From NCBI GenBank assembly GCA_039110515.1, contig JBCCFY010000010.1:50202-114201 (forward strand): a stretch of 64,000 bases of DNA, written 5' to 3'. The notes beneath the pieces were generated by a model. It was not told the DNA's origin. It ran no database searches and saw nothing but the letters and a program-made list of their open reading frames with translations. The DNA is from Pseudomonadota bacterium. Its GTDB lineage: Bacteria; Pseudomonadota; Gammaproteobacteria; Arenicellales; Arenicellaceae. A program made the translations under genes and the position numbers. The stretch's first letter is position 1. Each line of letters starts with the position of its first letter. Of the stretch, positions 40,426 to 64,000 are shown one piece after another.

Positions 40426-40433
40426 GCGTAATA

Positions 40434-44282: not shown

Positions 44283-44285
44283 CTT

Positions 44286-45050: not shown

Positions 45051-45067
45051 CTCAGGAGAACTTTATT

Positions 45068-47000: not shown

Positions 47001-47010
47001 GTGATCGGCG

Positions 47011-48753: not shown

Positions 48754-48765
48754 TAGGAAAGTAAA

Positions 48766-49605: not shown

Positions 49606-49672
49606 AAATTAGGCGGATTTTAGAAAGTGAGCCGAGATTATAATATATTTACCTGAACGACCTTAAAGGGAT

Positions 49673-50446
49673 ATGTCTAACATCCAATATCACGGAGATG
49701 GCAGAACAACTCAGTCCTGTATTGATGCCGTTCAGCGAATACTTCAGTTTGGCGGTTATATTAGTCTCGCACGGCTTCTAACTTGTAAAAACCGTCATGC
49801 TTTTTTTCTAACAATCGACGAATATCAAAATATTATTATTCAAGCTGGGTTTGCTTCTGGTTATGGCGGAGAAGCCCCAAAGGGCTTAGCAAGAGTTATA
49901 CAGCTAATTAGGTTTCACGGAGTGAAGTTAGAAGAGATAGATGTACCTCAAAAAGTTTTTAGGCGTATAGACTGCTGCAAGCTAAGAGATAAGGACCTAA
50001 AACAGATCGAGGAAACTCCATTTAAGCGCCCGGTATCTTTATACGATTACGTGTTGGAAGTTGGAGAACTAGCAGATACGGACCTCATGAGTTACTACAA
50101 ATGTGCAATCCCTTAGTCAACATTAGATACAAGGCTTTACGATTTGGCTTTGCAGCTAGATAGAGGTGATTCCAGTGTGGTACTTACCGCTTTCAATAGA
50201 CTTGAGACAATTTTGAAGGAAAGAACCGGCGGCGACGCTAAATCGCTTCGGTCTGCGGCAAGCGTCTTATTCTCAAGCGGTGGAGTAAATGGGCGAATTT
50301 CAACAACGGAGAAGTTGGTTACCTCTATATTTACCTTGTATAGAAATCCTCGGGCTCATGAAGAGCTTGGGCCGAATAGAGAGACTGATATCCGTTGTTT
50401 TGTGTTGATAAACGAACTGTTTCTACTAGAAAGAGATCAGGAGTGA
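49673..50446 (+). pseudogene. TIGR02391/Ymh-like protein (HEPN-type RxxxxH) split by one in-frame TAG
   Basis: The 49673-50116 and 50144-50446 ORFs share a frame: ...CAIP-TAG(50114-50116)-STLDTRLYDLALQ...YRNPRAH. Confidence 0.75.
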
Positions 50447-50820
50447 TTGCTATTTCCTTCAAGCATTGAACAATGCTTGAAGGCATATTCATATGAATCA
50501 TCATGCACAGAAACGTGTGACGCCTTCAGCGAGAGACACAGAGATAGGGTACTTGCACGTTTGGGGCATATCCTTTTCTCCGAAGGAGTACGATTAGAGC
50601 GACTAGTTTGCAGTTTTGCATTTACATGAAAATGATGTAAATATTGGTTGTGGTTAACGAGCTAGTGCGAAAGAGCTTGATAATATAACGCAGCTACAAT
50701 CAAGCAGGGATTTTCCAGATGGAGAGATATTCTAGTGGATTTGAATACAGGTCAAGTGATTTTCTTGGGAGCCTCGAGCTGAGTTCAATTTTGTGAATAT
50801 CAGAATTTAAAGAGGAGGGT

Positions 50821-51681
50821 ATGGATCGAAAAATATCAACCGTCAGTGATGCGCTAAAAATAGTAAATGAACTGCATAATCAACGACCGGCTCCTTCGGG
50901 TGTTCTTTACCGGGGTGTGGGTAGTTACAAATATAATTTAGAGCCTTCACTGTCGCGGTATCTCGCGCCCTCAAAACCGCTTCGGAACATGCGAGGCGAC
51001 TCGTTCAAGGAAGAGAGAATAAAATGGAAGGAGGTGTTCTCTAAAACTGAAAAAGGTCTTATTGAGGATTTTAAAAAATTGGCATGGCAGATGTTGTCCT
51101 ATAAACCAAAGAATGACTGGGAATGGATAGCAGTTGCTCAACATCATGGTGTGCCAACTAGACTCTTGGACTGGACAACCAATTTGTTGATAGGACTTTG
51201 GTTTGCCACAGATAGTTCGGGGGTGCATGCAAATATTGATGGTGGGTTATGGGTCTATACGCCTTTTGGGAGTCGTGATGGAGATACAGAGGACATCGGT
51301 GATACTGAGTGGCTTCTTGATCAAATGACCTCCGATCCAACGCATGAGCAATATATTGGGCCAACAGAGGTGAATCGCACACGCATCTACGTTCCAAATA
51401 ATCTCGATCCACGAATACAAATGCAATCTGGTGTATTCACGGCACACCAACTAATGCCGAACGATGGTTTTTTCGACCTGGTACCGCTAAACAAAAATGG
51501 CAGAGAACGCTTAAAGGTAAGCCGTATTCGAGTACCCAAGCGGGCTAAGGCCCAGATAAGGACCCAACTCGCGCGTGATTTTGGCTTGGACTTAACGAAG
51601 GTTTTCCCAGACGTTGATGGCGTTGCGCTCTCACTTAAGGCGGCTTGGGAGCCTACGGTCAAGAAAATTAAGAAAAAATAA
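50821..51681 (+). CDS. FRG-domain protein 1
   Basis: LYRG, AQHHGVPTRLLDWT, RIQMQSGVFT and VFPDVDG motifs; SD GAGGAGG. Confidence 0.9.
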   Translation: MDRKISTVSDALKIVNELHNQRPAPSGVLYRGVGSYKYNLEPSLSRYLAPSKPLRNMRGDSFKEERIKWKEVFSKTEKGLIEDFKKLAWQMLSYKPKNDWEWIAVAQHHGVPTRLLDWTTNLLIGLWFATDSSGVHANIDGGLWVYTPFGSRDGDTEDIGDTEWLLDQMTSDPTHEQYIGPTEVNRTRIYVPNNLDPRIQMQSGVFTAHQLMPNDGFFDLVPLNKNGRERLKVSRIRVPKRAKAQIRTQLARDFGLDLTKVFPDVDGVALSLKAAWEPTVKKIKKK

Positions 51682-51781
51682 GACAATCAAATTTTATGCA
51701 TGCATGACGGCCTCTCCAATTTGGAGATCAACCTCAGGAAGACGCATTAACTCATGAGTATTTACAATCGGGGAGTCAGGT

Positions 51782-52549
51782 ATGGCTAGTGTAGATAAAG
51801 AAAAAAGCTTCCAAGAAATAGAAGTTTCAACTTTTGACGAGCTGAGAGATCTTTTAGAAAACAAAATCCCAGAAATAGAGGACTTCGTCTTCCGTGGTCA
51901 AACAGATAAGAATTGGGATCTCAGTTCTACCCTCGATAGATTAATAAGACACGCGAGGGAAACCGGCGCCAAAACCGCATCAATGGAATCATTTGTGCAC
52001 AGCCACCTGGAAAGTTTCAAATTAGAGATTCGGGGTCGACGTGGTGATAACCCAAGTCAGTTAGAAGAAAATGAATTGTGGGCGTTAGGGCAGCACTATG
52101 GCCTCGCTACCCCACTACTTGATTGGTCATTATCACCCTATATTTCTGCTTTTTTTGCTTTGAGTAGTATCACTGCGGACGATGAAGGTGGAAGAGCCCT
52201 ATGGTGCCTTAATCGTAAAAAAGTAAATCAAATAAATTCTGGATTATCAGATACGCACCGATTGGAGCTTATTGTTCCGGATTCAGATGACAATAAGCGA
52301 TTACTGGGCCAGTCAGGGTTGTTCTCAAAAGGCCCGGTATTAGTGTCCGTGAATGAATGGGTTGATGATAAGACAGGTCCGTCGGCTTCACTAACTTTGA
52401 TAAAAATTGTATTTCCAAACCACCCGGAATTTCGTAAAGCAGCTCTTAAGAAACTGAATCTTATGAATATAAATCACTCAACGTTGTTTCCTGATTTAGA
52501 AGGCGCCAGCCTCCATTGCAATATTGTCGCGGAAGATTATGGCGTATAA
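51782..52549 (+). CDS. FRG-domain protein 2
   Basis: VFRGQ, GQHYGLATPLLDWS, RLLGQSGLF and LFPDLEG motifs. Confidence 0.9.
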   Translation: MASVDKEKSFQEIEVSTFDELRDLLENKIPEIEDFVFRGQTDKNWDLSSTLDRLIRHARETGAKTASMESFVHSHLESFKLEIRGRRGDNPSQLEENELWALGQHYGLATPLLDWSLSPYISAFFALSSITADDEGGRALWCLNRKKVNQINSGLSDTHRLELIVPDSDDNKRLLGQSGLFSKGPVLVSVNEWVDDKTGPSASLTLIKIVFPNHPEFRKAALKKLNLMNINHSTLFPDLEGASLHCNIVAEDYGV

Positions 52550-52728
52550 GAAAAAACATGCCAACGTTCGGTTTGTCCGAAAACCTTAATGTTGAGGTAT
52601 AAATTTGAGTAGGACTAACTGAGGATCATCTTCTCAACTACTGGGTGTGCCCGATTTGTTCCAAAACCAGATACACAAATTTGGTGAAATTCACCTTTGT
52701 GTAACACGATGATTAAAATTGGGGAAAA

Positions 52729-52774
52729 TGGTGGCCAGGGACAGAATCGAACTGCCGACACGGGGATTTTCAGT
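52729..52774 (-). mobile_element. att core: 3' half of tRNA-Phe(GAA)
   Basis: Reverse complement ACTGAAAATCCCCGTGTCGGCAGTTCGATTCTGTCCCTGGCCACCA covers the anticodon loop to CCA; the 5' anticodon-stem strand and D-arm are absent; about 150 bp from an integrase. Confidence 0.92.
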
Positions 52775-52894
52775 AAAAGTGGTGATGCATTTATTTGAAT
52801 GCAGTTTTATGTCTAATTTTGTGCGCTGAAATATAATCAAGGGTTTATAACAGGTTTGGGAATGCATACGGGTGTATCTATATGCACTAAAAAA

Positions 52895-52913
52895 GCTACC
52901 CATACGCTACCCA
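52895..52913 (+). repeat. Direct repeat GCTACCCA x2 (11-bp period), candidate integrase arm-type site
   Basis: gctaccca-tac-gctaccca between the att core and the integrase start. Confidence 0.5.
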
Positions 52914-52923
52914 GATAATCCGT

Positions 52924-54213
52924 TTGATGAGAGCCGGTCGGAATAGAGTTAAGTTTGTTGCAGAAAGAGTAAATAAGTTTTGCTGTCCTCCCGACAGAGT
53001 AGATGCTCTACTTTGGGATGCAGACGAGAAATCCTTATGTATCAGAGCTCGTAAGGGAGGATCTAGAGCTTACTATTTCCAGAGCCGATATAACGGCAAG
53101 GTTGTGAAGATTAAGATAGGTAACCTATCTGATAAAGCAGTTACCATTAATTTCGCCAGGAAAAAGGCAAGAAAATATCAATCACAAATCGATGAAGGCT
53201 TTGATCCGAGACAGGTGATAGCTCGGCGTGTCAAGGAAGCGAAAGTCGCGAGGGAAAAATCGAACTTGGCAGCAGTGAAGTTTGGAACTTTGTGGGATGA
53301 GTACGTTGATGCAAATAAAGTTCATTGGAGCGATTCTTATGCGCACGATCATGAAAAGGCTATGCGTGCGGGAGGGCGAAAGCGAAAGCGTTCATCTAGG
53401 TTGACTGTCCCTGGTGTTCTTTTTTCACTCAGAAACATCAAGATATCCGATCTCGATTCTGAACTTGTGATTGAATGGGCTCGTACTGAGGTCGTCCATA
53501 GGCCAACTGTCACAGCTAATGGCTATCGAATTTTCAGAGCTGCTCTCAATTGGGCAGCTGGCACACGTAAGTATAAATCTACGGTCAGGCCGGATGAAAT
53601 TTTCAAGAACCGCGAATTAAGAAGACTAATTCATAAGCCTAAGCCACGCAGAGATGTGTTGCTCCAGCAACACTTACCTACATGGTTTAGATCGGTACGA
53701 GAAAGTTGTGACCCGATAGTAGCTTGTTATCTGCAGGGCCTGTTGATAACTGGCGCGCGCCGAGAAGAAATGGCACAACTAAAGTGGGATGATGTCGACC
53801 TAGAATGGGACTCATTGGAAATCAGAGATAAAGTCGACGGGTCTCGGCAAATTCCGCTTACACCTTATTTTAAATTTTTATTGAGTGAGTTACCTCGCTA
53901 CAATGAGTGGGTATTTTATAGCCATTCGTCGCGCAGCGGGCGCATTGTCGACCCGTATCGAGCCCACAAGAGAGCATTAGACGATACGAATCTTCCTCAC
54001 ATCACGCTACATGGATTACGAAGAAGTTTTGGGACTCTTAGTGAATGGGTTGAGTGCCCTGTTGGGGTCGTGGCCCAGATACAAGGACACAAACCAAGCG
54101 CCATTGCGGAGAAACATTACCGTGTAAGGCCGCTCGACCTGTTGTCAGTTTGGCATCGAAAAATTGAAGAGAAAATCCTTGAGTTTGCGAAGATTGATTT
54201 TCCCTCTACCTGA
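52924..54213 (+). CDS. int: Tyrosine recombinase/integrase with an N-terminal arm-binding domain
   Basis: LLWD...L.IR...Y.FQ.R arm domain; catalytic TGARREE, HGLRR, QGH and KHY motifs. Confidence 0.93.
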   Translation: MMRAGRNRVKFVAERVNKFCCPPDRVDALLWDADEKSLCIRARKGGSRAYYFQSRYNGKVVKIKIGNLSDKAVTINFARKKARKYQSQIDEGFDPRQVIARRVKEAKVAREKSNLAAVKFGTLWDEYVDANKVHWSDSYAHDHEKAMRAGGRKRKRSSRLTVPGVLFSLRNIKISDLDSELVIEWARTEVVHRPTVTANGYRIFRAALNWAAGTRKYKSTVRPDEIFKNRELRRLIHKPKPRRDVLLQQHLPTWFRSVRESCDPIVACYLQGLLITGARREEMAQLKWDDVDLEWDSLEIRDKVDGSRQIPLTPYFKFLLSELPRYNEWVFYSHSSRSGRIVDPYRAHKRALDDTNLPHITLHGLRRSFGTLSEWVECPVGVVAQIQGHKPSAIAEKHYRVRPLDLLSVWHRKIEEKILEFAKIDFPST

Positions 54214-55322
54214 TGCCTGTTGTAACTTTCCAGCAACAATGTAACCAGGTTCTTGCTGAAATCCGCAAGGAGGCTTCTGCCAGGCGACTATGTAATTCGA
54301 AAAGCAAATCTACTAGATATGGTCGCCCATGGTGGAGTTTTTTGATCGAGTTAGACCTCTTGGGGGGGACTACAGGCCAAGATCAGACTACTAGAAAAAG
54401 AACCTATGACTTTATTAGACATGAATGTCAGTTCAACTGCGACAAGGCCTATGCCAAGCTATTGCACTTATGCCGGCAAGAGTTTAAGAATTCACCATTA
54501 GCTTACCTCACAAATCAACCCAATCACTTAGAGATAGGGTCTGACCTTCTTCGAGAAATTTGCTTGATTGTTGAAAAATTTACACCAGCACGAACCAGAG
54601 AGAAGTTCGTTGGTGTGAATGAAGATGTTTTTGTATTCAAGGCCCTTAATGATGGGGCGATAGTCGAGGAGCGTCTCAAGTTGAACTTCCAGACCAAGTC
54701 TCCAAGCTCTTTGCAGCGGATCGACAATAGTTTCTGTTTACTCTGTCACCGGCCGAAATCTGAAGAACGACGCTATTGTAATTTCCATTCGGGAAAAAAT
54801 GGGCGTACAACAAGGGATGCTCAAGCAAGATCTGATTACAGACGGCGCATTCGAATGATAGATCGAGTGTATCTCAATAGTGTTCTGGGAGAGAAAGGTG
54901 CGGCAGGATCCGTTACAGCATCGACGGATGAAAACCTCGTGGTGAAAGTTGCAAATGTAAAGCGAATCATGGCTCTATCGGGGCATCAGAGGTTGGTGCT
55001 TACTGAGATTTCAAGAATAAAGCTACCGGCCGATGTTCGGATAGATGATATGAATTGGCCGGATAAGCTATTGCCAATATTCAATACTCTTTACTTGATT
55101 CTGAGAAAATACCATTTTGGAAAACATGCAATATTGAGTCCAAGAATTCTGGATTTAAAATCAGGTTGGCAGCTTCCAAAATTGCTCTTGAAGGAATTGG
55201 ATCTTTTCAAAGAAGACTTTGAAACTGATCCTATTGTTCATTTTACTCCCAGTCTAGCGTTTCAAATAATACTTCGATTCTCGTACTTTCAATTTCTCAG
55301 AAAGCTAGAGAAAAAGGAATAA
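54213..55322 (+). CDS. Hypothetical protein with a CxxC...CxxH zinc-finger-like motif
   Basis: 369 aa; FCLLCHRP...YCNFH; TGATG 1-nt overlap with the int stop. Confidence 0.7.
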   Translation: MPVVTFQQQCNQVLAEIRKEASARRLCNSKSKSTRYGRPWWSFLIELDLLGGTTGQDQTTRKRTYDFIRHECQFNCDKAYAKLLHLCRQEFKNSPLAYLTNQPNHLEIGSDLLREICLIVEKFTPARTREKFVGVNEDVFVFKALNDGAIVEERLKLNFQTKSPSSLQRIDNSFCLLCHRPKSEERRYCNFHSGKNGRTTRDAQARSDYRRRIRMIDRVYLNSVLGEKGAAGSVTASTDENLVVKVANVKRIMALSGHQRLVLTEISRIKLPADVRIDDMNWPDKLLPIFNTLYLILRKYHFGKHAILSPRILDLKSGWQLPKLLLKELDLFKEDFETDPIVHFTPSLAFQIILRFSYFQFLRKLEKKE

Positions 55323-55403
55323 ATGTCACTAAATTGTTTTGCGATTCAGAAGGCCTTTCTCAGAATCCTTCCTATAAAAATACATTTAATTGAATCTAGC
55401 AAA

Positions 55404-55613
55404 ATGCCTATGAACACTAATAATCCTCAGAATCACACATGCACAACCGAACAACTCGCCAGTTATATGCTTGTTAAACCTGGAACTATCCGAGCACGAT
55501 ATTGTTCTGATGGCCATTACTATGGGTCGGTTCCAACCAAGCTTCCAAATGGCCGGCTGGCTTGGCCAATACCGCAACACGTACTAAAGGGGAATAAGGA
55601 ACACCAAAAATAG
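55404..55613 (+). CDS. Small DNA-binding protein, excisionase/AlpA-like
   Basis: TTEQLASYMLVKPGTIR...PTKLPNGRLAWP MerR-like HTH; ORF open from 55323, start uncertain. Confidence 0.7.
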   Translation: MPMNTNNPQNHTCTTEQLASYMLVKPGTIRARYCSDGHYYGSVPTKLPNGRLAWPIPQHVLKGNKEHQK

Positions 55614-55630
55614 CACAATCTACTGAATCC

Positions 55631-56425
55631 GTGGAGCCGCCTAAGCCGAAGTGTAGTCACACTTTGATGTTGATCCCAATTTTTGCTCTAAGCAAGAATC
55701 CAGATTTCGAAGTGTTCTCTTGGAACGATCTCGATTCGAAAGTAGAAGTTACACCTAGTAGTTCTGGCAGAGCTACCATTTGGGACAAAGACATTCTCCT
55801 ATTTTGTATGTCGAAGATCGTCAATGATTTGAATGATGGGGTTGTTCCTAGTCGAGTACTCTCTGTAAAAGGATCTGAGATTCTCCGATTCTGTAGTCGT
55901 GGAAGTGGTGGTCAAGATTATAAAAACCTCAGTGATGCACTGGATAGGTTGAGGGGCACATCAATAAAAACAGACATCAAGTCCCGAGACGTAGAATTTT
56001 CTGACGATTTTACGCTTCTCTCACGCGTGTCAAAGATGAAGATTGTTGGTAATGAAAAATCGACAAGAATACGAATAGAGCTTTCTGAGTGGATTTTCAC
56101 GCAAATGCTCGACCAGCACTATGTACTGACTTATGACCCCGGTTATTTCAAAATGACTAGCGCTATACACCGTCGGCTCTACGAAATCTTTAGAAAGCAC
56201 TGCGGTGAGCAACCAAAATTTCTAATTAGGCTTCGTAAGCTCTTTTTTAAAATTGGTAGTAAGGGATCACTGAATGATTTCAAAAAGGTATTGCGAAAAT
56301 CAGCAGACTACTATGACGAAATAAAAGGATTTCATTCTGGAATGGTGGGTCCTTATGAATACCGGTACCATGAAAGCAGGGAGATTATCGAGGTGAGGTT
56401 TCGTAGATGTCTAAGAGGTGAATAA
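55631..56425 (+). CDS. repA: Plasmid replication initiator RepA (RPA family)
   Basis: PIFALSK, GRATIWDKDILLF, GGQDYKNL.DALDRL.GT.I.T and RRLYEI.RKHCG motifs; followed directly by iterons. Confidence 0.88.
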   Translation: MEPPKPKCSHTLMLIPIFALSKNPDFEVFSWNDLDSKVEVTPSSSGRATIWDKDILLFCMSKIVNDLNDGVVPSRVLSVKGSEILRFCSRGSGGQDYKNLSDALDRLRGTSIKTDIKSRDVEFSDDFTLLSRVSKMKIVGNEKSTRIRIELSEWIFTQMLDQHYVLTYDPGYFKMTSAIHRRLYEIFRKHCGEQPKFLIRLRKLFFKIGSKGSLNDFKKVLRKSADYYDEIKGFHSGMVGPYEYRYHESREIIEVRFRRCLRGE

Positions 56426-56449
56426 CCTGTGGAAATGCTAGAAATCTGA

Positions 56450-56550
56450 CGGTATATCAACCCCGATATATTCGGTGTATCAACCCTGAACAACGGTATT
56501 TCGTCCCAAATGAGCGGTATATCAATCTCAAATTTCGGTATATCAACCCT
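56450..56550 (+). repeat. Five iterons, consensus CGGTATATCAACCC
   Basis: Copies start at 56450, 56473, 56494, 56515 and 56536 (spacing 23, 21, 21, 21). Confidence 0.93.
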
Positions 56551-56656
56551 ACTTGCATTGATATCTGATTGATTTTATTGCGTTTACGAAATGTATAACT
56601 GTTTAACCTAATAAATTAATAAAATTGTTATTAACTCATGTGGATAGTGTGGATAA
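56551..56656. promoter_or_regulatory. oriV AT-rich segment with tandem DnaA boxes
   Basis: AT-rich stretch (taataaattaataaaatt), then TGTGGATAG (56639-56647, one mismatch) and TGTGGATAA (56648-56656, perfect reverse complement of TTATCCACA). Confidence 0.82.
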
Positions 56657-56824
56657 GTCACTGGAACTGGAGATTTATAAGTGGTGGCTAATGGTCACCC
56701 TCAAGGTTAGAACTCTTAAGATCAGGTGGTGGCTGGAGCTCACTCAGAAGGCCTCATAATCGAATTGGAATCGTTATATTCATGGAGAATATGAATTTTG
56801 CCTCTAAATTAGAATCGATGAACT

Positions 56825-56833
56825 TGGTATAAT
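56825..56833 (+). promoter_or_regulatory. Extended -10 promoter element for ietAS
   Basis: TG-G-TATAAT 33 nt upstream of the TTG at 56867. Confidence 0.55.
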
Positions 56834-56866
56834 TTGATTTACAAACTAGGATATTTGGAAATCGTC

Positions 56867-57859
56867 TTGGCTAATACTAGAAACATTTTGGCAATGATCC
56901 GTAGTCGAGCCATTGGTGACGATGAGCAATTCTTCTCAATTGCTCTTCAGGTTGCTGCATCCGAGGCCAGGATGGGGCATCGAAGGATAGCTGAAGATAT
57001 TCGTACTGCTGTTGCTGAAGCTAGATCAACACGTCCTCAAAAAGCCTCTGTACCCGTCTCTTTTGCGAAACCGCGGGGGAATCTTGATGGTTTGTTGGAA
57101 CTTCGCGAAGCAAGATTTAGATTACAAGATGTAATTCTTTCAGAAGGACTAAAGAAGAAAATAGACGATCTCGTAAAACAACAAACCAGGCGAGACTGGT
57201 TAAGAGAGCACGGAAAAACACCAAACAAATCTGCCCTTTTAGTCGGACCACCTGGGTCAGGTAAAACTATGTCGGCGGAAGCCATCGCTAATAGACTGAA
57301 GCTCCCATTTTTTGTAATTAGATTAGAGTCTCTCATTACAAAGTTTATGGGAGAAACGGCGGCGCAGCTGCGGTTGGTCTTTGACGAAGTGGAATCTAAG
57401 AGAGGCGTTTACTTGTTCGATGAATTCGATGCTTTGGGAAGTAGACGCGACTCCAACAACGATGTTGCTGAGATGCGAAGAGTTCTCAATTCATTTCTTC
57501 AGTTTATGGAAACATCAAATACTACAGATAGCCTTGTTATTGCAGCGACAAACTTCCCCAACTTACTCGACAACGCATTGTTACGGCGATTTGATTTAGT
57601 CTTAAAGTTTAGTTACCCGAGTGATGAGCAGATCCGACAAATAATTAAGGACAATTTGCGCCCACTTAAGTATCCAAGGCTTGGTTGGAAGCAAATAATT
57701 AAAGACGCCAAGGATTTGAGCCAGTCAGAAATTGCACGTGCAGCGGAAGATGCAGTGAAGATGGCAATTTTAGATGAAAGGGATACACTTAAGACAAATG
57801 ATATCACTAACAGGCTGATAGAAAGAAAAGAGATGAAAGATGCTTTTACTGGAGTTTGA
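56867..57859 (+). CDS. ietA: AAA+ ATPase, IetA-like
   Basis: TTG start giving MANTRN...DDEQFFSIALQVAASEAR; Walker A GPPGSGKT, Walker B LFDEFD, AATN and ALLRRFD motifs. Confidence 0.88.
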   Translation: MANTRNILAMIRSRAIGDDEQFFSIALQVAASEARMGHRRIAEDIRTAVAEARSTRPQKASVPVSFAKPRGNLDGLLELREARFRLQDVILSEGLKKKIDDLVKQQTRRDWLREHGKTPNKSALLVGPPGSGKTMSAEAIANRLKLPFFVIRLESLITKFMGETAAQLRLVFDEVESKRGVYLFDEFDALGSRRDSNNDVAEMRRVLNSFLQFMETSNTTDSLVIAATNFPNLLDNALLRRFDLVLKFSYPSDEQIRQIIKDNLRPLKYPRLGWKQIIKDAKDLSQSEIARAAEDAVKMAILDERDTLKTNDITNRLIERKEMKDAFTGV

Positions 57860-57874
57860 AAATAGGGAATTATT

Positions 57875-60358
57875 ATGGCGGAGTTTGAACTGCCTCACCT
57901 CAATATAAGTAACAGAGTAGTTCCGAGAGCTTATCAGGCCCCGCGCCAGAATTTTGGGGGAAACGAGACAGTAAGAATTCCTGCAGAACATGGAAGTCTA
58001 TTGCGTTCTCAGCTTGAAAGAGCGTTTGCAGAAAGTGATCAACTACGGCCGACCCAAGTAGATTTACCAGAGCAGCAGGGAAGTTTTTTAGAAGTTCAAG
58101 TTGCCAGAGGGAAACGAGGCGAGGATCTGGAAAGGAAAAAGATAGGGATACACCCTGGTGCCAGTAAACTTGATGAAAACGATATCTGTCACATTGTCCT
58201 TTATGTTCCCACAGAATCTCGAGAGGCGTTTTATTCGATTCTCGATGATTATCGTACTCACACTCCGACCGAAGATCACCCAAATCCTCCGAGAAAAGGT
58301 CTTGTAGAATCTATCGATGAGATTAGGAGGGCTCAACTGGAATCATTTTGGACTGATGATCCGGAAGCTTTACCCACCGATGCAGATCTAGAAATCTGGT
58401 GGGAGCTTTGGTGTTTTCCAAGCGCTGTAGATGAAGTAATTACGTTAGCTAGACAGCTTGGTGCCTTTGTCTCAGATTCGGAGTCATGGATGAGATTTCC
58501 AGAGTCCACCGTGGTGCAGGTGCTAGCAAAACGCCCTACTATAGAGTTGCTGCTATATGCTCCCTTTGGGCTTCTCGAATTAAGAAGAGCTAGTATTTCC
58601 CCATCTCTTTTTATGGATGGTAGTGGTCAAGATCAACGCGATTGGTCAGTTTCGTTAGCAGAACGAACTATCTGGCCCGATTCTACGGTACCAGCTGTTT
58701 GTCTTCTAGACACCGGCGTAAATAGAGGACACGTACTTATTGAGCCGGCATTGAGTGCTGGTGATCAACTTACTATTAAGCAAGAGTGGAATGTTGAAGA
58801 TGATCACGGCCATGGCACTCAGATGGCGGGTTTAGCACTACACGGAGACCTGACGACAAAACTATCGGATGAATATACACACCAGATGATTCATCGACTG
58901 GAGTCAGTCAAACTCCTCCCTCCGAATGGGTTTGAAGCGACAGATCCTCGTAGTTATGGTTGGGTTACTCAGGCTGCAGTTTCTCTAGGTGAGATAAATG
59001 AGGTTAGTCGCCAGCGAGTATTTTGTTGCGCAATAACGAACGAGGATGTCTCTGGATCAAGGCCGAGCAGTTGGAGTGCAGCAATTGATCAATGTGCTGC
59101 CGGTGTGATGCCAGCTGACGAAGATAATGCCCCGCGTAGACTTTTTATTCTTTCTTGCGGCAACATAGCTCCCGAGGTTGATCCAAGAATCCTAAGAGAT
59201 CAGAGTGAGTATCCTGTAGAGGATCCCTCTCAAGCCTGGAACGCCTTGACTGTAGGAGGGTTCACTAATAAATCGCACATTGATGAGGAAGGATATGAAG
59301 CTTGGAGACCATATGCGCAATCTGGGGATGTGAGCCCTTACTCAAGAACTTCTCAATTATGGCCTGCTGGGAAATCTCCATTTAAACCAGATATTGTAAT
59401 GGAGGCGGGAAACCGAGGCATTTCTCCAACGGAGACTGAACTACTGGGGTTTGATTCCTTGAGTCTGCTGACTACTAACAGAGATGTTGATCGGCAACCG
59501 TTAACGACATTTTGGGCGACAAGCGCTGCAACCGCTTTGGCTTCGCGTTTGGCTGCCAGAATCCTCGCAGATAATCCCGACTATTGGCCAGAAACAGTAA
59601 GAGCGCTAATAGTGCATAGCGCTCAATGGACTCCAACAATGTTGGATCAGCTTAATGAATCGCATATAAAAAAGGATCGTCATGCTTTGCTTCGCAGATT
59701 TGGTTATGGTGTTCCCTCATATGAGCGTGCGCACGCCTCTTCTCAGAATAACCTAGCTCTTGTGGCACAGAATGAAATTCAACCGTACAAAAACGATGGT
59801 GGTAGAAAATTTGGAGACTGTCATATTTATGACCTCCCGTGGCCGAGGGATATACTAGAACAACTTGGAGATTCTGAGGTCACTCTCAAAGTTACACTGT
59901 CTTATTTCATTGAACCAAATCCCGGGTACAGTGGTTCTGTAAATCCTCAGAGATATCAGTCCTATGGACTAAGATTTGATTTAAAGAGGGGAAACGAGAC
60001 CAGGGAAGATTTTATTGAGCGAGTCAACGCCCTCGAACGCGATGACCCATTGGCCGCTCATCAACAAGGCGTTGCTGATGACGGTTGGACATTCGGTCAG
60101 AGGAGTGTTGCTGCAGGCTCGCTGCACTGTGATGAGTGGTCCGGAACTGCGGTGAAACTAGCCAACCGTGATCTATTGTGTATTAAGCCCGTTGGGGGAT
60201 GGTGGAGGGATCGAGCCTCATTGGATATTTGTCAGAAGATGGCGCGTTACGCTTTAGTGTTAACGATATCCACACCCAGAGAAGACATAAACCTTTACAC
60301 AGAAATTTCAAACATTGTAGATGCAATGATTGAACTTCCGGTATCTATAGAGACCTAG
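57875..60358 (+). CDS. ietS: S8 subtilase, IetS-like
   Basis: VCLLDTGVN (D), HGHGTQMAG (H), ATSAA (S), WPETVRALIVHSA and GYGVP motifs; 15 nt after the ATPase. Confidence 0.9.
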   Translation: MAEFELPHLNISNRVVPRAYQAPRQNFGGNETVRIPAEHGSLLRSQLERAFAESDQLRPTQVDLPEQQGSFLEVQVARGKRGEDLERKKIGIHPGASKLDENDICHIVLYVPTESREAFYSILDDYRTHTPTEDHPNPPRKGLVESIDEIRRAQLESFWTDDPEALPTDADLEIWWELWCFPSAVDEVITLARQLGAFVSDSESWMRFPESTVVQVLAKRPTIELLLYAPFGLLELRRASISPSLFMDGSGQDQRDWSVSLAERTIWPDSTVPAVCLLDTGVNRGHVLIEPALSAGDQLTIKQEWNVEDDHGHGTQMAGLALHGDLTTKLSDEYTHQMIHRLESVKLLPPNGFEATDPRSYGWVTQAAVSLGEINEVSRQRVFCCAITNEDVSGSRPSSWSAAIDQCAAGVMPADEDNAPRRLFILSCGNIAPEVDPRILRDQSEYPVEDPSQAWNALTVGGFTNKSHIDEEGYEAWRPYAQSGDVSPYSRTSQLWPAGKSPFKPDIVMEAGNRGISPTETELLGFDSLSLLTTNRDVDRQPLTTFWATSAATALASRLAARILADNPDYWPETVRALIVHSAQWTPTMLDQLNESHIKKDRHALLRRFGYGVPSYERAHASSQNNLALVAQNEIQPYKNDGGRKFGDCHIYDLPWPRDILEQLGDSEVTLKVTLSYFIEPNPGYSGSVNPQRYQSYGLRFDLKRGNETREDFIERVNALERDDPLAAHQQGVADDGWTFGQRSVAAGSLHCDEWSGTAVKLANRDLLCIKPVGGWWRDRASLDICQKMARYALVLTISTPREDINLYTEISNIVDAMIELPVSIET

Positions 60359-60644
60359 AATCCTTTTTTTTGCCAAATCCAGATATTCCTTTGTATCCAA
60401 TGACTCTAGCGGTGCGCTGCATTTTTTGACGAACTTTTCTATCTCTCAGTAACTGCTTTGGGTCTTTACGGATGGCCCCAGAGTTACTGATAACAATTTT
60501 GCCGGAGCATATGAGTTTGTCGGCACCATTTGTTACAAGAGTTTCCTTCTCCACAGACCTCTCAGAATCAAAACTCTTAGCGCAATAAAAATAGTTGCGT
60601 ATGCGTTTGGTTAGTTTTGCGCAAGAGACGAACATAAGAGTCAT
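60345..60644 (-). CDS. Possible small basic hypothetical protein
   Basis: 99-aa ORF filling the intergenic gap, convergent on and overlapping the ietS stop. Confidence 0.3.
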   Translation of the reverse strand: MTLMFVSCAKLTKRIRNYFYCAKSFDSERSVEKETLVTNGADKLICSGKIVISNSGAIRKDPKQLLRDRKVRQKMQRTARVIGYKGISGFGKKKDSRSL

Positions 60645-60990
60645 TAGAGATCGATCCTGATCATCCTCAGTATTCCACAGTTCATGTATTACGAGTAGTC
60701 ATCTTCGTCTTTACATAAATTGTTAGGCCTGAATCAATCTATCAGCACGCGCGAGATTCGGATCAAGATTTTGGGATCGTTTGATAAATCGCCCTAGCAG
60801 ACTGCGCTAACAGCATGCTAGGACTTCTCCAACAAACCTGGAATGAGGTTATATGAAGCGTCGATATTATTATGAAAATTATGTTAAGAGTGAAGCTGGA
60901 GTTGTTGTCAAACTGCCGAATATCGCTGACTTCGATGATCGAGCTGGCTACGTTCAGGCCTTTCGAACGGCCACTAAGGAGGTGAAACCA

Positions 60991-61455
60991 ATGGATTTCA
61001 ATGCCATCGAGGGACTTATGCTTCAACGGGCATCACGTATCAAACCATTAACCAAAATGACGAATCGGCTCATAAAAGCACAGCAACGGAGCAGGATTAT
61101 TAGAATTATGGTGCTAGTAGCGATCTTCTTTGGATTGACCGCATGTGGCGGTGGTGGTAGTTCAAGTGGAGGAGGGCAACAAGAGTCCCTATCTGTTAAT
61201 GGGAACACTGCTGAGAACGCAAGGGCTGATCAATGTCTGACATTCGAAAATACACCAGCGGGTGATCGCCGTTATACAAATATTTGTTCGTTTACAATTC
61301 GTACCGCCTCGTTTAACTCCGATGGTAGTGTGGGCCGAGGAATAGCCCAACCAGGGACAACATTCTTAGTAACACAAGGACAAGCAATTCCCGTGGCCTG
61401 CGAAGAACCTTTCAATCCTCAGCAGAGTTCAAGCGGCGTCATATGCAGAATTTAG
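60991..61455 (+). CDS. Cys-containing lipoprotein with a long N-region (frame open from ATG 60853)
   Basis: SD TAAGGAGGTGA before ATG 60991; h-region followed by LTAC-GGGGSSSGGG; four further Cys. Confidence 0.7.
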   Translation: MDFNAIEGLMLQRASRIKPLTKMTNRLIKAQQRSRIIRIMVLVAIFFGLTACGGGGSSSGGGQQESLSVNGNTAENARADQCLTFENTPAGDRRYTNICSFTIRTASFNSDGSVGRGIAQPGTTFLVTQGQAIPVACEEPFNPQQSSSGVICRI

Positions 61456-63143
61456 TTGATATCTAGCGTACAAGGGCTGGTCGCCAGATTGTCGCACCGA
61501 ATTCGATTCCAACAGAGCACAGTGTCACCTGTGATTGAATTCTTGCACTGCCATGTCTGTATCCGATCCACGTTACTGCTAGATGTGAAAGCAGGCTGAT
61601 CATTGTCCCCAGAGTTGCACAAATTTGGATCCGAAAGTGAAAAAGGCGTAACGGAAGATGGATTGCCAACAAATCTTTCTTGGCCGTGATTGGATCCACA
61701 TGAAGGGGGCGTGCTGTCACCATCACCCGAACAGTTTTTGGTGCCGATAGATCCGCGCCGATTGCCGTTGCTAGCTAAACCTTCACATCGGGTTTGAGTA
61801 AATGACACCCCTGAACAGACAGTGCTAGGATCTGGAGCCCATGGTTCTACACATGTTGTTGAACAATTTCTGGTTCCTGGTCTCTCTTCAGTAGTCCCGC
61901 AGTTGTCACGCCAAGTTACTGTGTCTGTTGTACATACCGAGGCTGGGTTTAAGTCTGGTACCATCCCGGTTGACAATACTTGGTAGTTAACTACTCGACT
62001 TAGGTTTTTCCCTAGACATTCATCGCAAAGAGGAAAATTCGAACCCTTTGTGTCAAAAGAACAACCACAAGTTTGTAAGATCGTGTGATTACCACAAGAG
62101 GTCTGTCTGGGTTCACTATCTGCGCAGTCTACTGCCGTGACTGCGTAGTCTGTATCGAGGCAAAAATGGACCTTGTCGCTCGATTTGGGATTGTTCAGTA
62201 AGGAGTTTTTAGCTTTCGCCTTAAGGAAATCAACAAAGTCGTCTCTGCCTGCAAGTTTTTTTGTGAAAACAGGAATCTGGGCATTGCTATCAAGATTGTT
62301 TGCAGTAACTACAACAGGGTGATACTCCACTGAGCCTTCGCGCGTATCAACCAAACGGCGGTGTTCAATTTTAGCTGACGCCGAGGTAGGTTCTCCATGT
62401 GCGGCTACAATCTCAGGTGAGCTTAATCTAGCTATGTAGTCATCATGGGGAAAGTCTCCAACGTTGTTGGCAATCAGATCAGTTCGATTCTCAATGCAGG
62501 TCTCTATGTTTCCAGTACCAGTGGCATCTCTTACCGCGCCACAGAGATTAGTTTGTTGGAACTGGATACCTGAACAAACAGTATTTTCAGCCGGGGCAAA
62601 CAAACCGGCCTCACAGCATTTGGTTCCAGTTGCCTGTCTAGTACCTCTGCATTGGTTAGTTTGAGTAAAAGATTCTCCAGAACAAACAGTCCCTGGATCG
62701 GGCAACCATTGATCTATACAGCAATTTTTTGTGCCAGTTTTTTGTCGCGTGTACCCGCAGTTAGATGTCTGAGTAAACGTCTCTCCAGCGCAGATCGTGT
62801 TGGGTGCTGGGTTCCATGTCCAACCTTCATTCTTACTGTAGACATCGCGGCATCTCGTCGTGTTTAGTAGCGTTCCGCATTGCGTAACTTTATGGTTCTT
62901 ACACACTTTGACTGTATTGAGGTTCTCGTTGGTCCAAGTAACAGCACCACACATCAACGGATGATCCTTTTGGCCTAACAGTTGTCCGCGGTATTTGCCG
63001 CAATTGTCATATCTGGGAATGGAGGTGCCAACACAGTAACGGGTGGCAATGCTTGGTAGCCAACCATGATTCGGGCCACATAAATTGGCCTCTGCAATTG
63101 GAGTGAGAACGGAAAAAATTAGGATCAGAGTGATGATCTTCAT
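61452..63143 (-). CDS. Secreted Cys-rich repeat protein (38 Cys)
   Basis: The minus strand reads MKIITLILIFSVLTPIAEA from ATG 63143; five WxPxPxTVCSGxxFTQTxxCGxTRxxxGTKxC-like repeats. Confidence 0.85.
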   Translation of the reverse strand: MKIITLILIFSVLTPIAEANLCGPNHGWLPSIATRYCVGTSIPRYDNCGKYRGQLLGQKDHPLMCGAVTWTNENLNTVKVCKNHKVTQCGTLLNTTRCRDVYSKNEGWTWNPAPNTICAGETFTQTSNCGYTRQKTGTKNCCIDQWLPDPGTVCSGESFTQTNQCRGTRQATGTKCCEAGLFAPAENTVCSGIQFQQTNLCGAVRDATGTGNIETCIENRTDLIANNVGDFPHDDYIARLSSPEIVAAHGEPTSASAKIEHRRLVDTREGSVEYHPVVVTANNLDSNAQIPVFTKKLAGRDDFVDFLKAKAKNSLLNNPKSSDKVHFCLDTDYAVTAVDCADSEPRQTSCGNHTILQTCGCSFDTKGSNFPLCDECLGKNLSRVVNYQVLSTGMVPDLNPASVCTTDTVTWRDNCGTTEERPGTRNCSTTCVEPWAPDPSTVCSGVSFTQTRCEGLASNGNRRGSIGTKNCSGDGDSTPPSCGSNHGQERFVGNPSSVTPFSLSDPNLCNSGDNDQPAFTSSSNVDRIQTWQCKNSITGDTVLCWNRIRCDNLATSPCTLDIN

Positions 63144-63236
63144 TGTGCAGCTATCGTTTTTAAATTTGACAAATAGTCTGTAACACAATGCTCTAATCTG
63201 AAGAATCAGTGAAAACTAAATTGTTGATGGGACAAT

Positions 63237-63569
63237 TTAATCTGTACGTCTTTTGAAGCTCTCACATATGAATACGGCGTCAATGATTTGGTGCATTTCC
63301 AGGCAATATGCCTGAACTGTCGACTTTCCGGTCGTCGAGAGTGGACTGGAGAGTCCGCATCTCAAACGAGCTTTGCTGCAATCGACGCATAGAAACTTCG
63401 TTTCGTCGGATAGCATGGACAGTATTTGTCTGTACTGACTTGCGTTGATCCCAGAATCGGAGGAGGTCAATTGATCTAGCGTAGCATCGAAGTGAGTTTG
63501 TAAGATTCTGAATTCGGAGCGTAAGCTGTCGAGTGATTCGCCCAATGATTCCAATACGTGATCTTCCAT
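63237..63569 (-). CDS. Small helical protein overlapping the relaxase C-terminus (MbeB/MobB-like position)
   Basis: SD GAGG before ATG 63569; 110 aa in a different frame from the relaxase. Confidence 0.6.
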   Translation of the reverse strand: MEDHVLESLGESLDSLRSEFRILQTHFDATLDQLTSSDSGINASQYRQILSMLSDETKFLCVDCSKARLRCGLSSPLSTTGKSTVQAYCLEMHQIIDAVFICESFKRRTD

Positions 63570-64000
63570 TTAAAGCCTCTGTTGATGTGGTTAGTGGTTT
63601 ATGTATCTTGATGGGTGATGCAGGCTCGCTATTCACTGAGCAGGCATATCGCTTCTCATTGAGAATTTTTTTTCGTTCAAATGCGACTTTCAGTTGTGCT
63701 GCTGCAGTCTTCTCCCTATCAATCCTTTGGCTTGCAAATATCAAAGATTGTTTAGCTATCTCGCTCTCCGTTAGCTGGCCATTCCAAGATTCCAAGTAAA
63801 CGGCCCCCGTCAACCTAATGTTACGTTTGCTGGTATTCGTTCTTATGCTAATCGAGGACTTTGTTGTTCGGGCTACATTTATGCCTAGCCGCTCTAGCTC
63901 TTTAACAATATCGTCACGGGTTTCAATTTCTCCAGCAGCTATGCAAGCCTCTACGTGTGCATGTAGCTTTTGCCTAAGTCTCTCTACATCTTGGGGTAAA
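63280..64000 (-). CDS. MobA/MbeA-type relaxase, 5'-truncated by the window edge
   Basis: Frame open from 63999: LPQDVERLRQKLHAHVEACIAAGEIETRDDIVKELERLGINVARTTKSSISIR...NIRLTGAVY, characteristic of the post-catalytic region of ColE1-type relaxases. Confidence 0.75.
   Translation of the reverse strand, partial: LPQDVERLRQKLHAHVEACIAAGEIETRDDIVKELERLGINVARTTKSSISIRTNTSKRNIRLTGAVYLESWNGQLTESEIAKQSLIFASQRIDREKTAAAQLKVAFERKKILNEKRYACSVNSEPASPIKIHKPLTTSTEALNGRSRIGIIGRITRQLTLRIQNLTNSLRCYARSIDLLRFWDQRKSVQTNTVHAIRRNEVSMRRLQQSSFEMRTLQSTLDDRKVDSSGILPGNAPNH

What the first reader, a model, noticed from the sequence alone, without database searches (positions are those of the whole stretch)
52729..64000. 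Integrated element combining a tRNA integrase, a complete iteron plasmid replicon, an addiction/defence pair and a ColE1-type relaxase
Seen: att, int, Zn-finger gene, xis-like, repA, oriV, ietAS, then inward-facing exported proteins, mobB-like and mobA. Established: ICEs/IMEs typically replicate after excision by relaxase-driven rolling circle, whereas RepA-iteron-DnaA-box origins are theta plasmid replicons. Inference: a hybrid 'integrative plasmid' that can live as a true episome, be mobilised in trans, and must silence its origin while integrated. The intact tRNA-Phe should lie beyond 64000 on the minus strand.
Basis: partly seen in the sequence, partly recalled or inferred. Interest (0 to 1): 0.75.

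Follow-up and report, generated by a model that had tools for sequence, protein, structure and literature searches.

The report
Mobilizable island carrying a plasmid replicon
A 13.6-kb mobile element sits in a tRNA-Phe gene of an uncultured marine bacterium and combines an integrase, an intact-looking plasmid replication origin, a toxin/defence pair and ColE1-type transfer genes; elements built this way are already known (SGI1, PIMEs, pPDL2), so this is a tidy new example, not a new principle.

Summary
Perfect 50-bp direct repeats (window 52725-52774, and 66350-66399 in extrapolated window coordinates) bracket a 13.6-kb element.

The element encodes:
- a P4-type integrase, an orphan zinc-finger protein and a small Xis/MerR-fold protein;
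- an RPA-family RepA followed by five phased iterons, an AT-rich stretch and two DnaA boxes;
- IetA/IetS, two exported proteins, and an MbeA-like (HEN-motif) relaxase with MobC.

One new point: a tandem motif, GCTACCCATnnGCTACCCAG, occurs only twice in the 4.49-Mb genome, once inside each end of the element. Its geometry matches that of attP sites on unintegrated phage contigs.

The element has no type IV secretion system or coupling protein, and neither does the host assembly. Its depth is 13.2 against 14.6-14.8 for the flanks, so it is about single-copy and integrated.

The nearest RepA and MobA relatives (36-39% identity) lie on a circular ~15-kb mobilizable plasmid that carries parA. I read it as a replicative integrative mobilizable element: a new module combination of a known kind. 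Excision, replication and transfer are untested.

The parts
52725..52774 (-). attL: 50-bp direct repeat, made of the 46-nt 3' part of tRNA-Phe(GAA) read on the minus strand plus 4 nt
   Evidence: Identical to C10:116551-116600 inside the intact tRNA-Phe. Only two copies exist on the contig.
52895..52914 (+). Putative arm-type integrase binding sites (GCTACCCATacGCTACCCAG), 10 nt before the int start
   Evidence: The motif occurs exactly twice in the 4.49-Mb genome. The second copy is at window-equivalent 66259-66278, 72 nt inside attR. The same motif pair flanks a partial tRNA core in attP geometry on phage contigs L100 and L101.
52924..54213 (+). Tyrosine integrase, P4-type with an arm-binding N-terminal domain
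   Evidence: PF00589 E 2e-13 and PF13356 E 2e-8; phrog_1 integrase E 2e-30; thousands of homologues at 45-58% identity. The box residues TGARREE, HGLRRS and HY are read directly from the sequence.
54213..55322 (+). Orphan 369-aa protein with a CxxC-x11-CxxH zinc-finger-like motif; function unknown, possibly a regulator
   Evidence: No homologue in 5.8 billion proteins by word search. One remote homologue among 1.84 billion representatives, aligned at 25% identity over the full length with the Cys/His motif conserved. That homologue lies beside HTH_17, KfrA_N, NikA-like and relaxase genes.
55404..55613 (+). Small winged-helix DNA-binding protein, candidate excisionase or AlpA-like regulator
   Evidence: 40-44% identical to the ORF at the same position in islands that carry related integrases. 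The AF2 model (pLDDT 73) has BldC/MerR, Pukovnik Xis and a phage P2 DNA-binding protein as its best PDB matches, at weak E-values of 0.1-0.3. No Pfam, NCBIfam or PHROG hit.
55631..56425 (+). repA, replication initiator of the RPA family (the called gene starts at 55667)
   Evidence: PF10134 E 4e-58 covering profile positions 4-216 of 228, plus a weak Rep3_N hit. 1191 plasmid records carry homologues annotated as replication initiator protein A. The nearest relatives are only 39-45% identical.
56449..56656 (+). oriV-like region: five iterons (56449-56549), an AT-rich stretch (about 56560-56635) and two adjacent DnaA boxes (56639-56656)
   Evidence: Iteron spacing is 23/21/21/21 bp. All five matches cluster here, against two scattered 3-mismatch matches elsewhere in the window. 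The only perfect TTATCCACA in the window is here. Related plasmid L066/L067 and island L013 show the same layout after their repA.
56834..57859 (+). ietA, AAA+ ATPase (antitoxin partner in pTiC58 and SGI1)
   Evidence: PADLOC IetA E 6e-71; PF00004 E 1e-31.
57875..60358 (+). ietS, S8 subtilase (toxin/effector partner)
   Evidence: PADLOC IetS E 6e-35; PF00082 E 5e-53.
60853..61455 (+). Cargo: predicted lipoprotein (lipobox LTAC); the real start is probably internal
   Evidence: Sequence; no family hit.
61452..63188 (-). Cargo: Cys-rich secreted repeat protein with a signal peptide
   Evidence: Sequence; no family hit.
63280..64000 (-). 3' part of mobA, the ColE1/MbeA-type relaxase. The full gene is window-equivalent 63280-64485 (L001 1482-2687). 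Beyond the window lie mobC (L001 2677-3009/3117), an oriT-like region (L001 about 3010-3120), orf183 (L001 3256-3807, +), membrane orf152 (L001 3901-4359, -), the second arm-site pair (L002 15260-15279), and attR inside tRNA-Phe (L001 4556-4631)
   Evidence: NF047848 relax_MbeA_E1 E 3e-83 over residues 1-284; PF03432; 43-46% identity to relaxases of about 3,500 small mobilizable plasmids; Y19 and H97-E104-N106 aligned. MobC matches PF05713 and NikA-like. Upstream sequence blocks are conserved with two plasmids.

Best explanation
This is an intact-looking integrative mobilizable element (IME), 13.6 kb long, inserted in the 3' end of tRNA-Phe. It is a mosaic of two modules.

1. A P4-type integration module: int, a zinc-finger ORF and a small Xis/AlpA-like winged-helix protein. 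The deduced attP has a 50-bp tRNA core flanked by paired arm-type sites.
2. A small mobilizable-plasmid backbone: an RPA-family RepA with an iteron/DnaA-box oriV, the IetAS addiction/defence pair, cargo genes, and a ColE1-type MobC-MobA relaxosome with its oriT.

Proposed life cycle (inferred, not shown):
- The element normally rides in the chromosome at one copy.
- Int plus the small DNA-binding protein excise it as a circle.
- RepA is encoded last in the tight co-directional array int-orf369-orf69-repA. It fires the iteron origin with host DnaA, so the circle is kept, and perhaps amplified, while extrachromosomal.
- MobC and MobA nick at oriT, and a conjugative element supplied in trans provides the coupling protein and pore.
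- In the recipient, the element re-integrates into tRNA-Phe.
- IetAS penalises loss and probably also protects against phage.
- The element has no partition genes, whereas its nearest plasmid relatives carry parA. Integration probably takes the place of partition.
For: Shown here:
- Perfect 50-bp repeats, the right one inside an intact tRNA-Phe.
- A tandem arm-site motif that occurs only twice in the genome, once inside each end. Its start-to-start distance across the deduced attP is 261 nt, against 262 nt on the unintegrated phage contig L101.
- Full-length int, repA, ietA, ietS, mobC and mobA with strong family matches.
- HEN motif and catalytic Tyr aligned in the relaxase.
- Five phased iterons, an AT-rich stretch and DnaA boxes.
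- No VirD4/TraG, TraG-D_C or VirB4 family in the 96%-complete host assembly.
- Element GC is 44.1% against 50.4% for the genome.
- Depth is 13.2 for the element against 14.6 and 14.8 for the flanks.
- The nearest RepA (39%) and MobA (36-37%) relatives lie together on a plasmid. Contig L067 has a 141-nt terminal overlap, so it is circular, about 15.1 kb. It carries parA, repA, a DnaA box, 22-bp iterons, a TA pair and mob genes in the same relative order.
- Related integrases sit in int, orfX, small-HTH arrays followed by a replication module at the position that repA holds here: HTH_36 and primase in two of the three contexts examined, with a helicase as well in one.
- Other islands at tRNA-Met combine int, RPA RepA, iterons and defence cargo.

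Precedent from papers: SGI1 (PMC7826253, PMC7433901, PMC5006074), PIMEs (10.64898/2026.01.12.698999) and pPDL2 (PMC3516476).
Against: - No functional evidence exists. The only run that holds the element is kept as k=31 contigs, which cannot resolve a 50-bp repeat, so neither the circular attP junction nor the empty attB could be looked for.
- Depth gives no sign of extrachromosomal copies.
- The element is seen in one metagenome-assembled genome only. No near-identical copy was found in JGI metagenome contigs, and no close RepA relative exists among 5.8 billion proteins, so conservation cannot support activity.
- oriT is inferred from position and short conserved blocks only; blastn against plasmids found nothing.
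- The integrase lies at the end far from the intact tRNA. That is the opposite of the other tRNA-Phe islands in related genomes.
- No helper element and no helper-responsive regulator could be identified.
Confidence: 0.75

Rival explanations
1. The element is a fossil. A mobilizable plasmid was captured in tRNA-Phe by an integrase, can no longer excise, replicate or transfer, and is kept only for its defence and exported-protein cargo.
For: Single-copy depth. No helper in the genome. Seen in one genome only. The C-terminal third of MobA is short and unconserved, and no MbeB/MbeD equivalents were detected.
Against: No frameshift or internal stop was seen in the module ORFs, and repA and the N-terminal relaxase domain cover their family models almost end to end. 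The repeats are perfect over 50 bp, both arm-site pairs are intact, and the iterons keep their phasing. GC is still 6 points below the host. These together suggest recent arrival and no decay.
Confidence: 0.15
2. It is an assembly or binning artefact. A free plasmid carrying a tRNA-Phe-like attP was joined into the chromosome contig through the shared 50-bp sequence.
For: In the k=31 Logan contigs the element is a separate 13,635-bp piece that begins and ends inside the repeat. An integrated element and a circle plus an empty site would both give this pattern.
Against: Contig C10 of the assembly crosses both junctions. Element depth of 13.2 is close to the flanks at 14.6 and 14.8, which would be a coincidence for an independent plasmid. 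The partial tRNA copy at attL and the complete tRNA at attR are what integration produces.
Confidence: 0.05
3. It is a phage satellite (P4/PICI-like) and not a conjugatively mobilized element.
For: Its integrase family is often followed by an HTH_36 and primase replication module, with a helicase in one case, as in satellite-like islands. The arm-site motif is shared with phage attP sites.
Against: It has a relaxase, MobC and an oriT-like region. Pfam and PHROG scans of its ORFs found no capsid, packaging or phage-interference gene.
Confidence: 0.03

Closest known systems
Salmonella Genomic Island 1 (SGI1), a replicative IME
   Same: It has the same functional set: integrase and Xis, a RepA with a downstream iteron and DnaA-box oriV, an IetA/IetS-type TA pair (sgiAT, S026/S025), its own mobilization genes and oriT, and no complete T4SS. 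It is silent and integrated until a helper arrives (PMC7826253, PMC7433901, PMC5006074, PMC6414798).
   Different: The parts compared belong to different families or targets. SGI1 integrates in trmE, uses a Rep_3/IncN2-N3-type RepA, has its own mobilization genes and oriT described in PMC6414798 and not a ColE1-type MobC-MobA pair, and is wired to IncA/C AcaCD. This element uses tRNA-Phe, an RPA-family RepA and an MbeA-type relaxase, has no recognisable helper-responsive regulator, and is a third of the size.
PIMEs, Pseudomonadota integrative mobilizable elements (bioRxiv 10.64898/2026.01.12.698999)
   Same: They carry int, alpA and repA with an oriV directly downstream (four iterons, a DnaA box, an AT-rich stretch), plus mobilization genes and defence-system cargo. 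Excision, replication and mobilization by a helper have been shown experimentally.
   Different: PIMEs have an RSF1010-related repA (some with repC) and IncP-type traJ/traI/trb genes. The characterised member integrates in guaA, and most are about 20 kb. Here the initiator is RPA-family, the relaxase is the MbeA type with a HEN motif, and the target is tRNA-Phe.
Plasmid pPDL2 of Sphingobium fuliginis (PMC3516476)
   Same: It has an RPA-family RepA (a hit, 34% identity) with an iteron, AT-rich and DnaA-box oriV, a tyrosine integrase with an attP matching the 3' end of a tRNA gene, a functional oriT, and a TA addiction module. It is described as a plasmid that is also an IME.
   Different: pPDL2 is found as a 37-kb free plasmid with parA, targets tRNA-Ser and uses relBE as its TA pair. 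This element is found integrated, lacks par genes, and has a ColE1-type relaxase and IetAS.
ColE1-superfamily small mobilizable plasmids (MbeA/MbeC relaxosome)
   Same: The MobA N-terminal 285 residues match the MbeA model (E 3e-83), with Y19 and the H-E-N motif. A MobC-family gene lies directly upstream, and conserved blocks sit upstream of mobC.
   Different: Those plasmids replicate by RNA-primed ColE1 origins or other small replicons and do not integrate. No MbeB or MbeD homologue is present here.
Uncultured ~15-kb circular plasmid (contigs L066-L070)
   Same: It holds the nearest RepA (39%) and a related relaxase (36-37%) in the same order: repA, then a DnaA box and 22-bp iterons, then a TA pair, with the mob genes on the opposite strand.
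   Different: It is free and circular, carries parA, and has only a short 222-aa recombinase. It has no tRNA-type attP and no IetAS.

Membership tests
Integrative mobilizable element (IME) | Site-specific recombinase with flanking att repeats at a defined target | tested here: met
   Tyrosine integrase; perfect 50-bp repeats, one inside an intact tRNA-Phe; paired arm-type sites on both arms.
Integrative mobilizable element (IME) | Own relaxase and/or oriT, but no mating-pore (T4SS) or coupling-protein genes | tested here: met
   MbeA-like relaxase and MobC. None of the element's ORFs match T4SS families. PF02534, PF03135 and PF12696 are absent from the whole assembly.
Integrative mobilizable element (IME) | Demonstrated excision and helper-dependent transfer | not testable with these tools
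   Only k=31 contigs of one metagenome run are available, and a 50-bp repeat cannot be resolved with them.
Iteron-type theta replicon (RPA-family RepA) | Initiator of the RPA / winged-helix Rep family | tested here: met
   PF10134 E 4e-58 over nearly the whole model; weak Rep3_N hit.
Iteron-type theta replicon (RPA-family RepA) | Three or more directly repeated iterons phased at about two helical turns, next to rep | tested here: met
   Five copies at 23/21/21/21-bp spacing starting 24 nt after the repA stop.
Iteron-type theta replicon (RPA-family RepA) | AT-rich unwinding region and DnaA box(es) | tested here: met
   An AT-rich stretch at 56560-56635, read. Two adjacent boxes, one perfect and the only perfect one in the window.
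Iteron-type theta replicon (RPA-family RepA) | Autonomous replication of repA plus oriV | not testable with these tools
   This needs a minireplicon experiment. Depth gives no sign of extra copies.
ColE1-type (MOB-HEN / MbeA) relaxosome | Relaxase N-terminal domain homologous to MbeA, with the catalytic Tyr and the H-E-N motif in place of the three-His motif | tested here: met
   NF047848 E 3e-83 over residues 1-284, below that model's strict cut-off of 500 bits. Y19, H97, E104 and N106 align with plasmid relaxases.
ColE1-type (MOB-HEN / MbeA) relaxosome | MbeC/MobC-type accessory protein next to the relaxase | tested here: met
   PF05713 E 1e-11 and NikA-like; the gene overlaps the mobA start.
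ColE1-type (MOB-HEN / MbeA) relaxosome | MbeB and MbeD accessory genes nested in mbeA | tested here: not met
   An overlapping 110-aa ORF exists, but it has no similarity to MbeB of the Vibrio plasmid or to any Pfam, NCBIfam or PHROG family.
ColE1-type (MOB-HEN / MbeA) relaxosome | ColE1-type oriT (bom) upstream of the mob operon | tested here: inconclusive
   The blocks AAGCCAGCATA, GCTGG(C/A)AAGGGG and GCCCCCTT(A/T)ACCCC are shared with the Vibrio gigantis plasmid p2, and the first block also with the Acinetobacter plasmid, upstream of mobC. blastn against all plasmids found nothing. Resemblance to the pBR322 bom region rests on my memory only.
IetAS defence/addiction system | Adjacent AAA+ ATPase (IetA) and S8 subtilase (IetS) | tested here: met
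   PADLOC IetA E 6e-71 and IetS E 6e-35; the genes are 15 nt apart.
SGI1 family | Integration at trmE, a Rep_3/IncN2-N3-type RepA, and SGI1's own mobilization genes under IncA/C AcaCD control | tested here: not met
   The target is tRNA-Phe, the initiator is RPA-family and the relaxase is MbeA-type. AcaCD boxes were not searched for.
PIME family | RSF1010-related repA (some with repC), IncP-type traJ/traI/trb genes, and the alpA-luxR regulatory pair of subfamily 1 | tested here: not met
   The Pfam and NCBIfam scans of the element's ORFs give none of these.

The most novel reading that the evidence does not exclude
The element is a truly bimodal replicon of a so-far undescribed IME family. In hosts that support its RPA/iteron origin it persists as a par-less free plasmid stabilised by IetAS. 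Elsewhere it parks in tRNA-Phe. The orphan zinc-finger protein (orf369) acts as a new kind of switch coupling excision, RepA expression and relaxosome genes; its only homologue also sits beside an HTH_17 gene and an MbeA-like relaxase. A ColE1-type relaxosome would let it use a wide range of helper plasmids, unlike the helper-specific SGI1 and PIMEs.
Probability: 0.2. Interest if true: 0.55.

Novelty: new variant of a known kind. Interest (0 to 1): 0.35.

Why it matters
It adds an example from an uncultured marine gammaproteobacterium to the recent view that many IMEs carry real theta-type plasmid replicons, and that IMEs and mobilizable plasmids exchange backbones.

Here the exchange is unusually easy to read. 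In related islands the integrase is followed by an HTH_36/primase replication module; here that module is replaced by the repA, oriV, addiction and mob backbone of a ~15-kb plasmid type, and parA is lost.

The compact 13.6-kb element has clear att, arm, oriV and oriT candidates. That makes it a convenient model for two questions: how an integrated iteron origin is kept quiet, and whether integration can substitute for partition. It changes no principle.

Tried and rejected
- Looked for circular (attP) or empty-site (attB) forms in public runs. Only one metagenome run holds the element, and it is kept as k=31 contigs that break inside the 50-bp repeat, so the question cannot be answered.
- Looked for close relatives of the whole element. 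RepA in GTDB genomes is at most 43% identical and never co-occurs with the same Int or MobA. RepA in 5.8 billion proteins is at most 45% identical. An exact iteron pattern gave no hit in JGI metagenome contigs.
- Orf369 has no homologue by word search and one remote homologue by full HMMER.
- Tested 'mobB-like' against MbeB and three HMM libraries; no similarity.
- Tried to anchor oriT by blastn against all plasmids (no hit) and by alignment to an E. coli ColE1-like plasmid. The region I chose there was coding, so it was uninformative.
- Tried to find the ancestral empty site by synteny. The left flank (window 36000-52724) has no counterpart near tRNA-Phe in seven related genomes, and their distal flanks do not map near this locus. 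The pre-insertion state is therefore not established.
- Searched for a third, degenerate att copy that would indicate tandem islands; none found.
- The promoter and terminator scan of int through repA gave fewer promoter-like sites than shuffled sequence, so it says nothing about regulation.
- A satellite reading was considered and set aside because the element has a relaxosome and no phage-related genes.

Full report
**Where it is.** The window is C10:50202-114201 of a 4.49-Mb, 93-contig assembly. The only public run holding this DNA is a marine metagenome. ARAGORN finds no tRNA in the window. On the full contig it finds one, tRNA-Phe(GAA), on the minus strand at C10:116555-116630, which is window-equivalent 66354-66429.

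**Boundaries.** The 46 nt at window 52729-52774 equal the 3' part of that tRNA. With four more bases the identity extends to a perfect 50-bp direct repeat, at 52725-52774 and at window-equivalent 66350-66399. Neither a fuzzy search nor a short-word blastn finds a third copy. The element is therefore 13.6 kb. Its GC content is 44.1%, against 50.4% for the genome.

**Gene content, left to right**:
- int, 52924-54213. PF00589 plus the arm-binding domain PF13356.
- orf369, 54213-55322.
- A small ORF, 55404-55613.
- repA, 55631-56425. PF10134 RPA, E 4e-58.
- The oriV-like region.
- ietA and ietS. PADLOC E 6e-71 and 6e-35.
- A lipoprotein gene (+) and a Cys-rich secreted-protein gene (-), which converge.
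- mobA (-), 401 aa, running past the window end.
- mobC (-). PF05713 and NikA-like.
- Two unknown ORFs, then attR inside the tRNA.

No partition genes, T4SS genes or coupling protein are present. The families PF02534, PF03135 and PF12696 are absent from the whole 96%-complete assembly. The element's proteins occur only once in the genome.

**Replication origin.** Five copies of a 14-15-bp iteron (consensus CGGTATATCAACCC) start 24 nt after the repA stop, with 23/21/21/21-bp spacing. An AT-rich stretch follows, then two adjacent DnaA boxes. One of them is the only perfect TTATCCACA in the 64-kb window. This is the standard layout of iteron replicons. It recurs after the repA of the nearest plasmid relative and of an unrelated island.

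**Recombination sites (new in this stage).** The tandem motif GCTACCCATnnGCTACCCAG occurs exactly twice in the 4.49-Mb genome:
- at window 52895-52914, 10 nt before the int start and 121 nt inside attL;
- at window-equivalent 66259-66278, 72 nt inside attR.

None of 200 shuffles gave a match. In the deduced circular form the two pairs would flank the 50-bp core, with 261 nt from start to start. The same motif pair flanks a partial tRNA core just upstream of an Arm-DNA-bind_3 integrase gene on two IMG/VR contigs. On L101 the spacing is 262 nt; L101 is a temperate-phage fragment carrying a tRNA-Lys-like core. These are very likely arm-type Int binding sites. They show that both ends of the element belong to one recombination unit with an attP of normal geometry.

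**Mobilization module.**
- MobA matches NCBIfam relax_MbeA_E1 at E 3e-83 over residues 1-284.
- It is 43-46% identical to relaxases of about 3,500 small mobilizable plasmids.
- It aligns with the catalytic Tyr (Y19) and the H97-E104-N106 motif of ColE1-type relaxases.
- Sequence blocks upstream of mobC are shared with a Vibrio plasmid, and one of them also with an Acinetobacter plasmid. I take this region as the oriT, but a plasmid-wide blastn found nothing.
- The 'mobB-like' overlapping ORF has no detectable homologue.

**The two small or unknown genes after int.**
- The 69-aa ORF is 40-44% identical to the ORF at the same position in islands carrying related integrases. Its AF2 model (pLDDT 73) is nearest to BldC/MerR winged helices, mycobacteriophage Pukovnik Xis and a phage P2 DNA-binding protein, with weak scores. 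'Xis-like' is plausible but not proven.
- Orf369 is nearly an orphan. It has no word-search hit among 5.8 billion proteins and one remote full-length homologue among 1.84 billion representatives, with the FCLxCHR...YCxxH motif conserved. That homologue sits beside HTH_17, KfrA_N, NikA-like and MbeA-like genes. The family is therefore tied to mobilizable elements, but its function is unknown.

**Origin of the parts.**
- The integrase has thousands of relatives at 45-58% identity. In the three contexts examined, int is followed by an unrelated abutting ORF and the conserved small HTH. In two of them an HTH_36 and primase replication module follows, with a helicase in one. The third has only unannotated ORFs at that position.
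- Here a plasmid replicon occupies that position.
- The nearest RepA (39%) and a related relaxase (36-37%) lie together on permuted ~15-kb contigs. One of them, L067, has a 141-nt terminal overlap and so is circular. Its gene order is parA, repA, a DnaA box with 22-bp iterons, a TA pair, then mob genes on the opposite strand.
- The element thus reads as a plasmid backbone that gained an integration module and lost parA, or equally as an integrase island that swapped its replication module.
- Similar solutions exist elsewhere. Three MAG contigs, two labelled Cocleimonas and one Cyclobacteriaceae, carry tRNA-Met, int, an unknown ORF and RPA repA in that order. On L013, where I looked further, iterons and a type I R-M system follow.

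**State in the sample.** In the k=31 contigs of the one run that holds it, the element is a 13,635-bp piece at depth 13.2, against 14.6 and 14.8 for the flanks. That is about one copy per chromosome and no multicopy episome. These contigs cannot distinguish the integrated form from a circle plus an empty site, because the repeat is longer than k. The assembly contig, however, crosses both junctions.

**Comparison with what is known.** It no longer holds:
- SGI1 has a functional RepA with an iteron and DnaA-box oriV, and replicates at 4-8 copies when an IncC helper induces it (PMC7826253, PMC7433901). It also carries a TA pair homologous to IetA/IetS that promotes its maintenance (PMC5006074).
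- PIMEs have int, alpA, repA and an oriV with four iterons and a DnaA box, plus defence cargo. They excise, replicate and transfer with IncP helpers (bioRxiv 10.64898/2026.01.12.698999).
- pPDL2 is an RPA-RepA iteron plasmid with an integrase and a tRNA-matching attP (PMC3516476). It appears among the RepA hits.

The present element belongs to none of these families. Its target, initiator family and relaxase family all differ, but it works on the same plan.

**Verdict.** The best reading is a replicative IME with a new module combination: a P4-type tRNA-Phe integrase, an RPA iteron replicon, IetAS and a ColE1-type relaxosome. Excision, replication, silencing of the origin and mobilization are all inferred. 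The experiments that would settle them are listed under next steps.

Noticed in passing
window 50821-52549: Two divergent adjacent genes just left of attL both match PADLOC candidate defence family PDC-S15 (E 3e-54 and 1e-78). The region from about window 45000 to 52700 is also low in GC at 38-47%. It has no integrase and no att copy, so it may be an older island remnant or a defence hotspot next to tRNA-Phe.
   Followed up: partly
L084, L086, L087, L088, L089 (relatives G009, G013, G030, G005, G011): tRNA-Phe is an integration hotspot in this genus and order. Several related genomes have a second partial tRNA-Phe copy 6-25 kb from the intact gene, and a different tyrosine integrase directly next to the tRNA. 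None of these islands shares a protein with the element studied here.
   Followed up: partly
L012, L013, L014 (MAG contigs; L013 6982-20627): All three contigs carry tRNA-Met, an integrase, a 430-450-aa unknown ORF and an RPA-family RepA in that order. On L013, where I looked further, at least three iterons (ATCGTACTATCACCCAC) follow, then a second integrase-like gene, a type I R-M system and a patatin gene. These are further islands that pair an integrase with an RPA-family repA.
   Followed up: partly
L100 21-256; L101 1863-2144 (IMG/VR contigs): The arm-site pair GCTACCCA(T/G)nnGCTACCCAG is shared by integrases only 23% identical to this one. It flanks different tRNA cores in attP form on phage contigs. 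It may be a general recognition motif of Arm-DNA-bind_3 (DUF4102) integrases, and could be used to find attP and att ends computationally.
   Followed up: partly
L098 8845-9975; L099 4277-5407: The only homologue of the orphan zinc-finger protein orf369 lies in another mobilizable element, beside HTH_17, KfrA_N, NikA-like, a 510-aa MbeA-like relaxase, a Zn-ribbon protein and a type I HsdR.
   Followed up: no
window 56681-56751: Two 26-bp direct repeats (GTGGTGGCTnnnG.TCAC.C..AAGG) lie 45 bp apart, between the DnaA boxes and ietA. They could be an operator for ietAS or an extra origin element.
   Followed up: no
window 61452-63188: A 578-aa secreted protein with many Cys residues in repeated modules has no family hit in Pfam or NCBIfam. 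It is carried as cargo between ietS and mobA.
   Followed up: no
L001 3256-3807: Orf183, between the oriT-like region and attR, has only faint hits: HepT-type RNase toxin at E 0.005 and phrog_12893 at E 1e-4. It may be a small HEPN-like toxin or defence gene.
   Followed up: no
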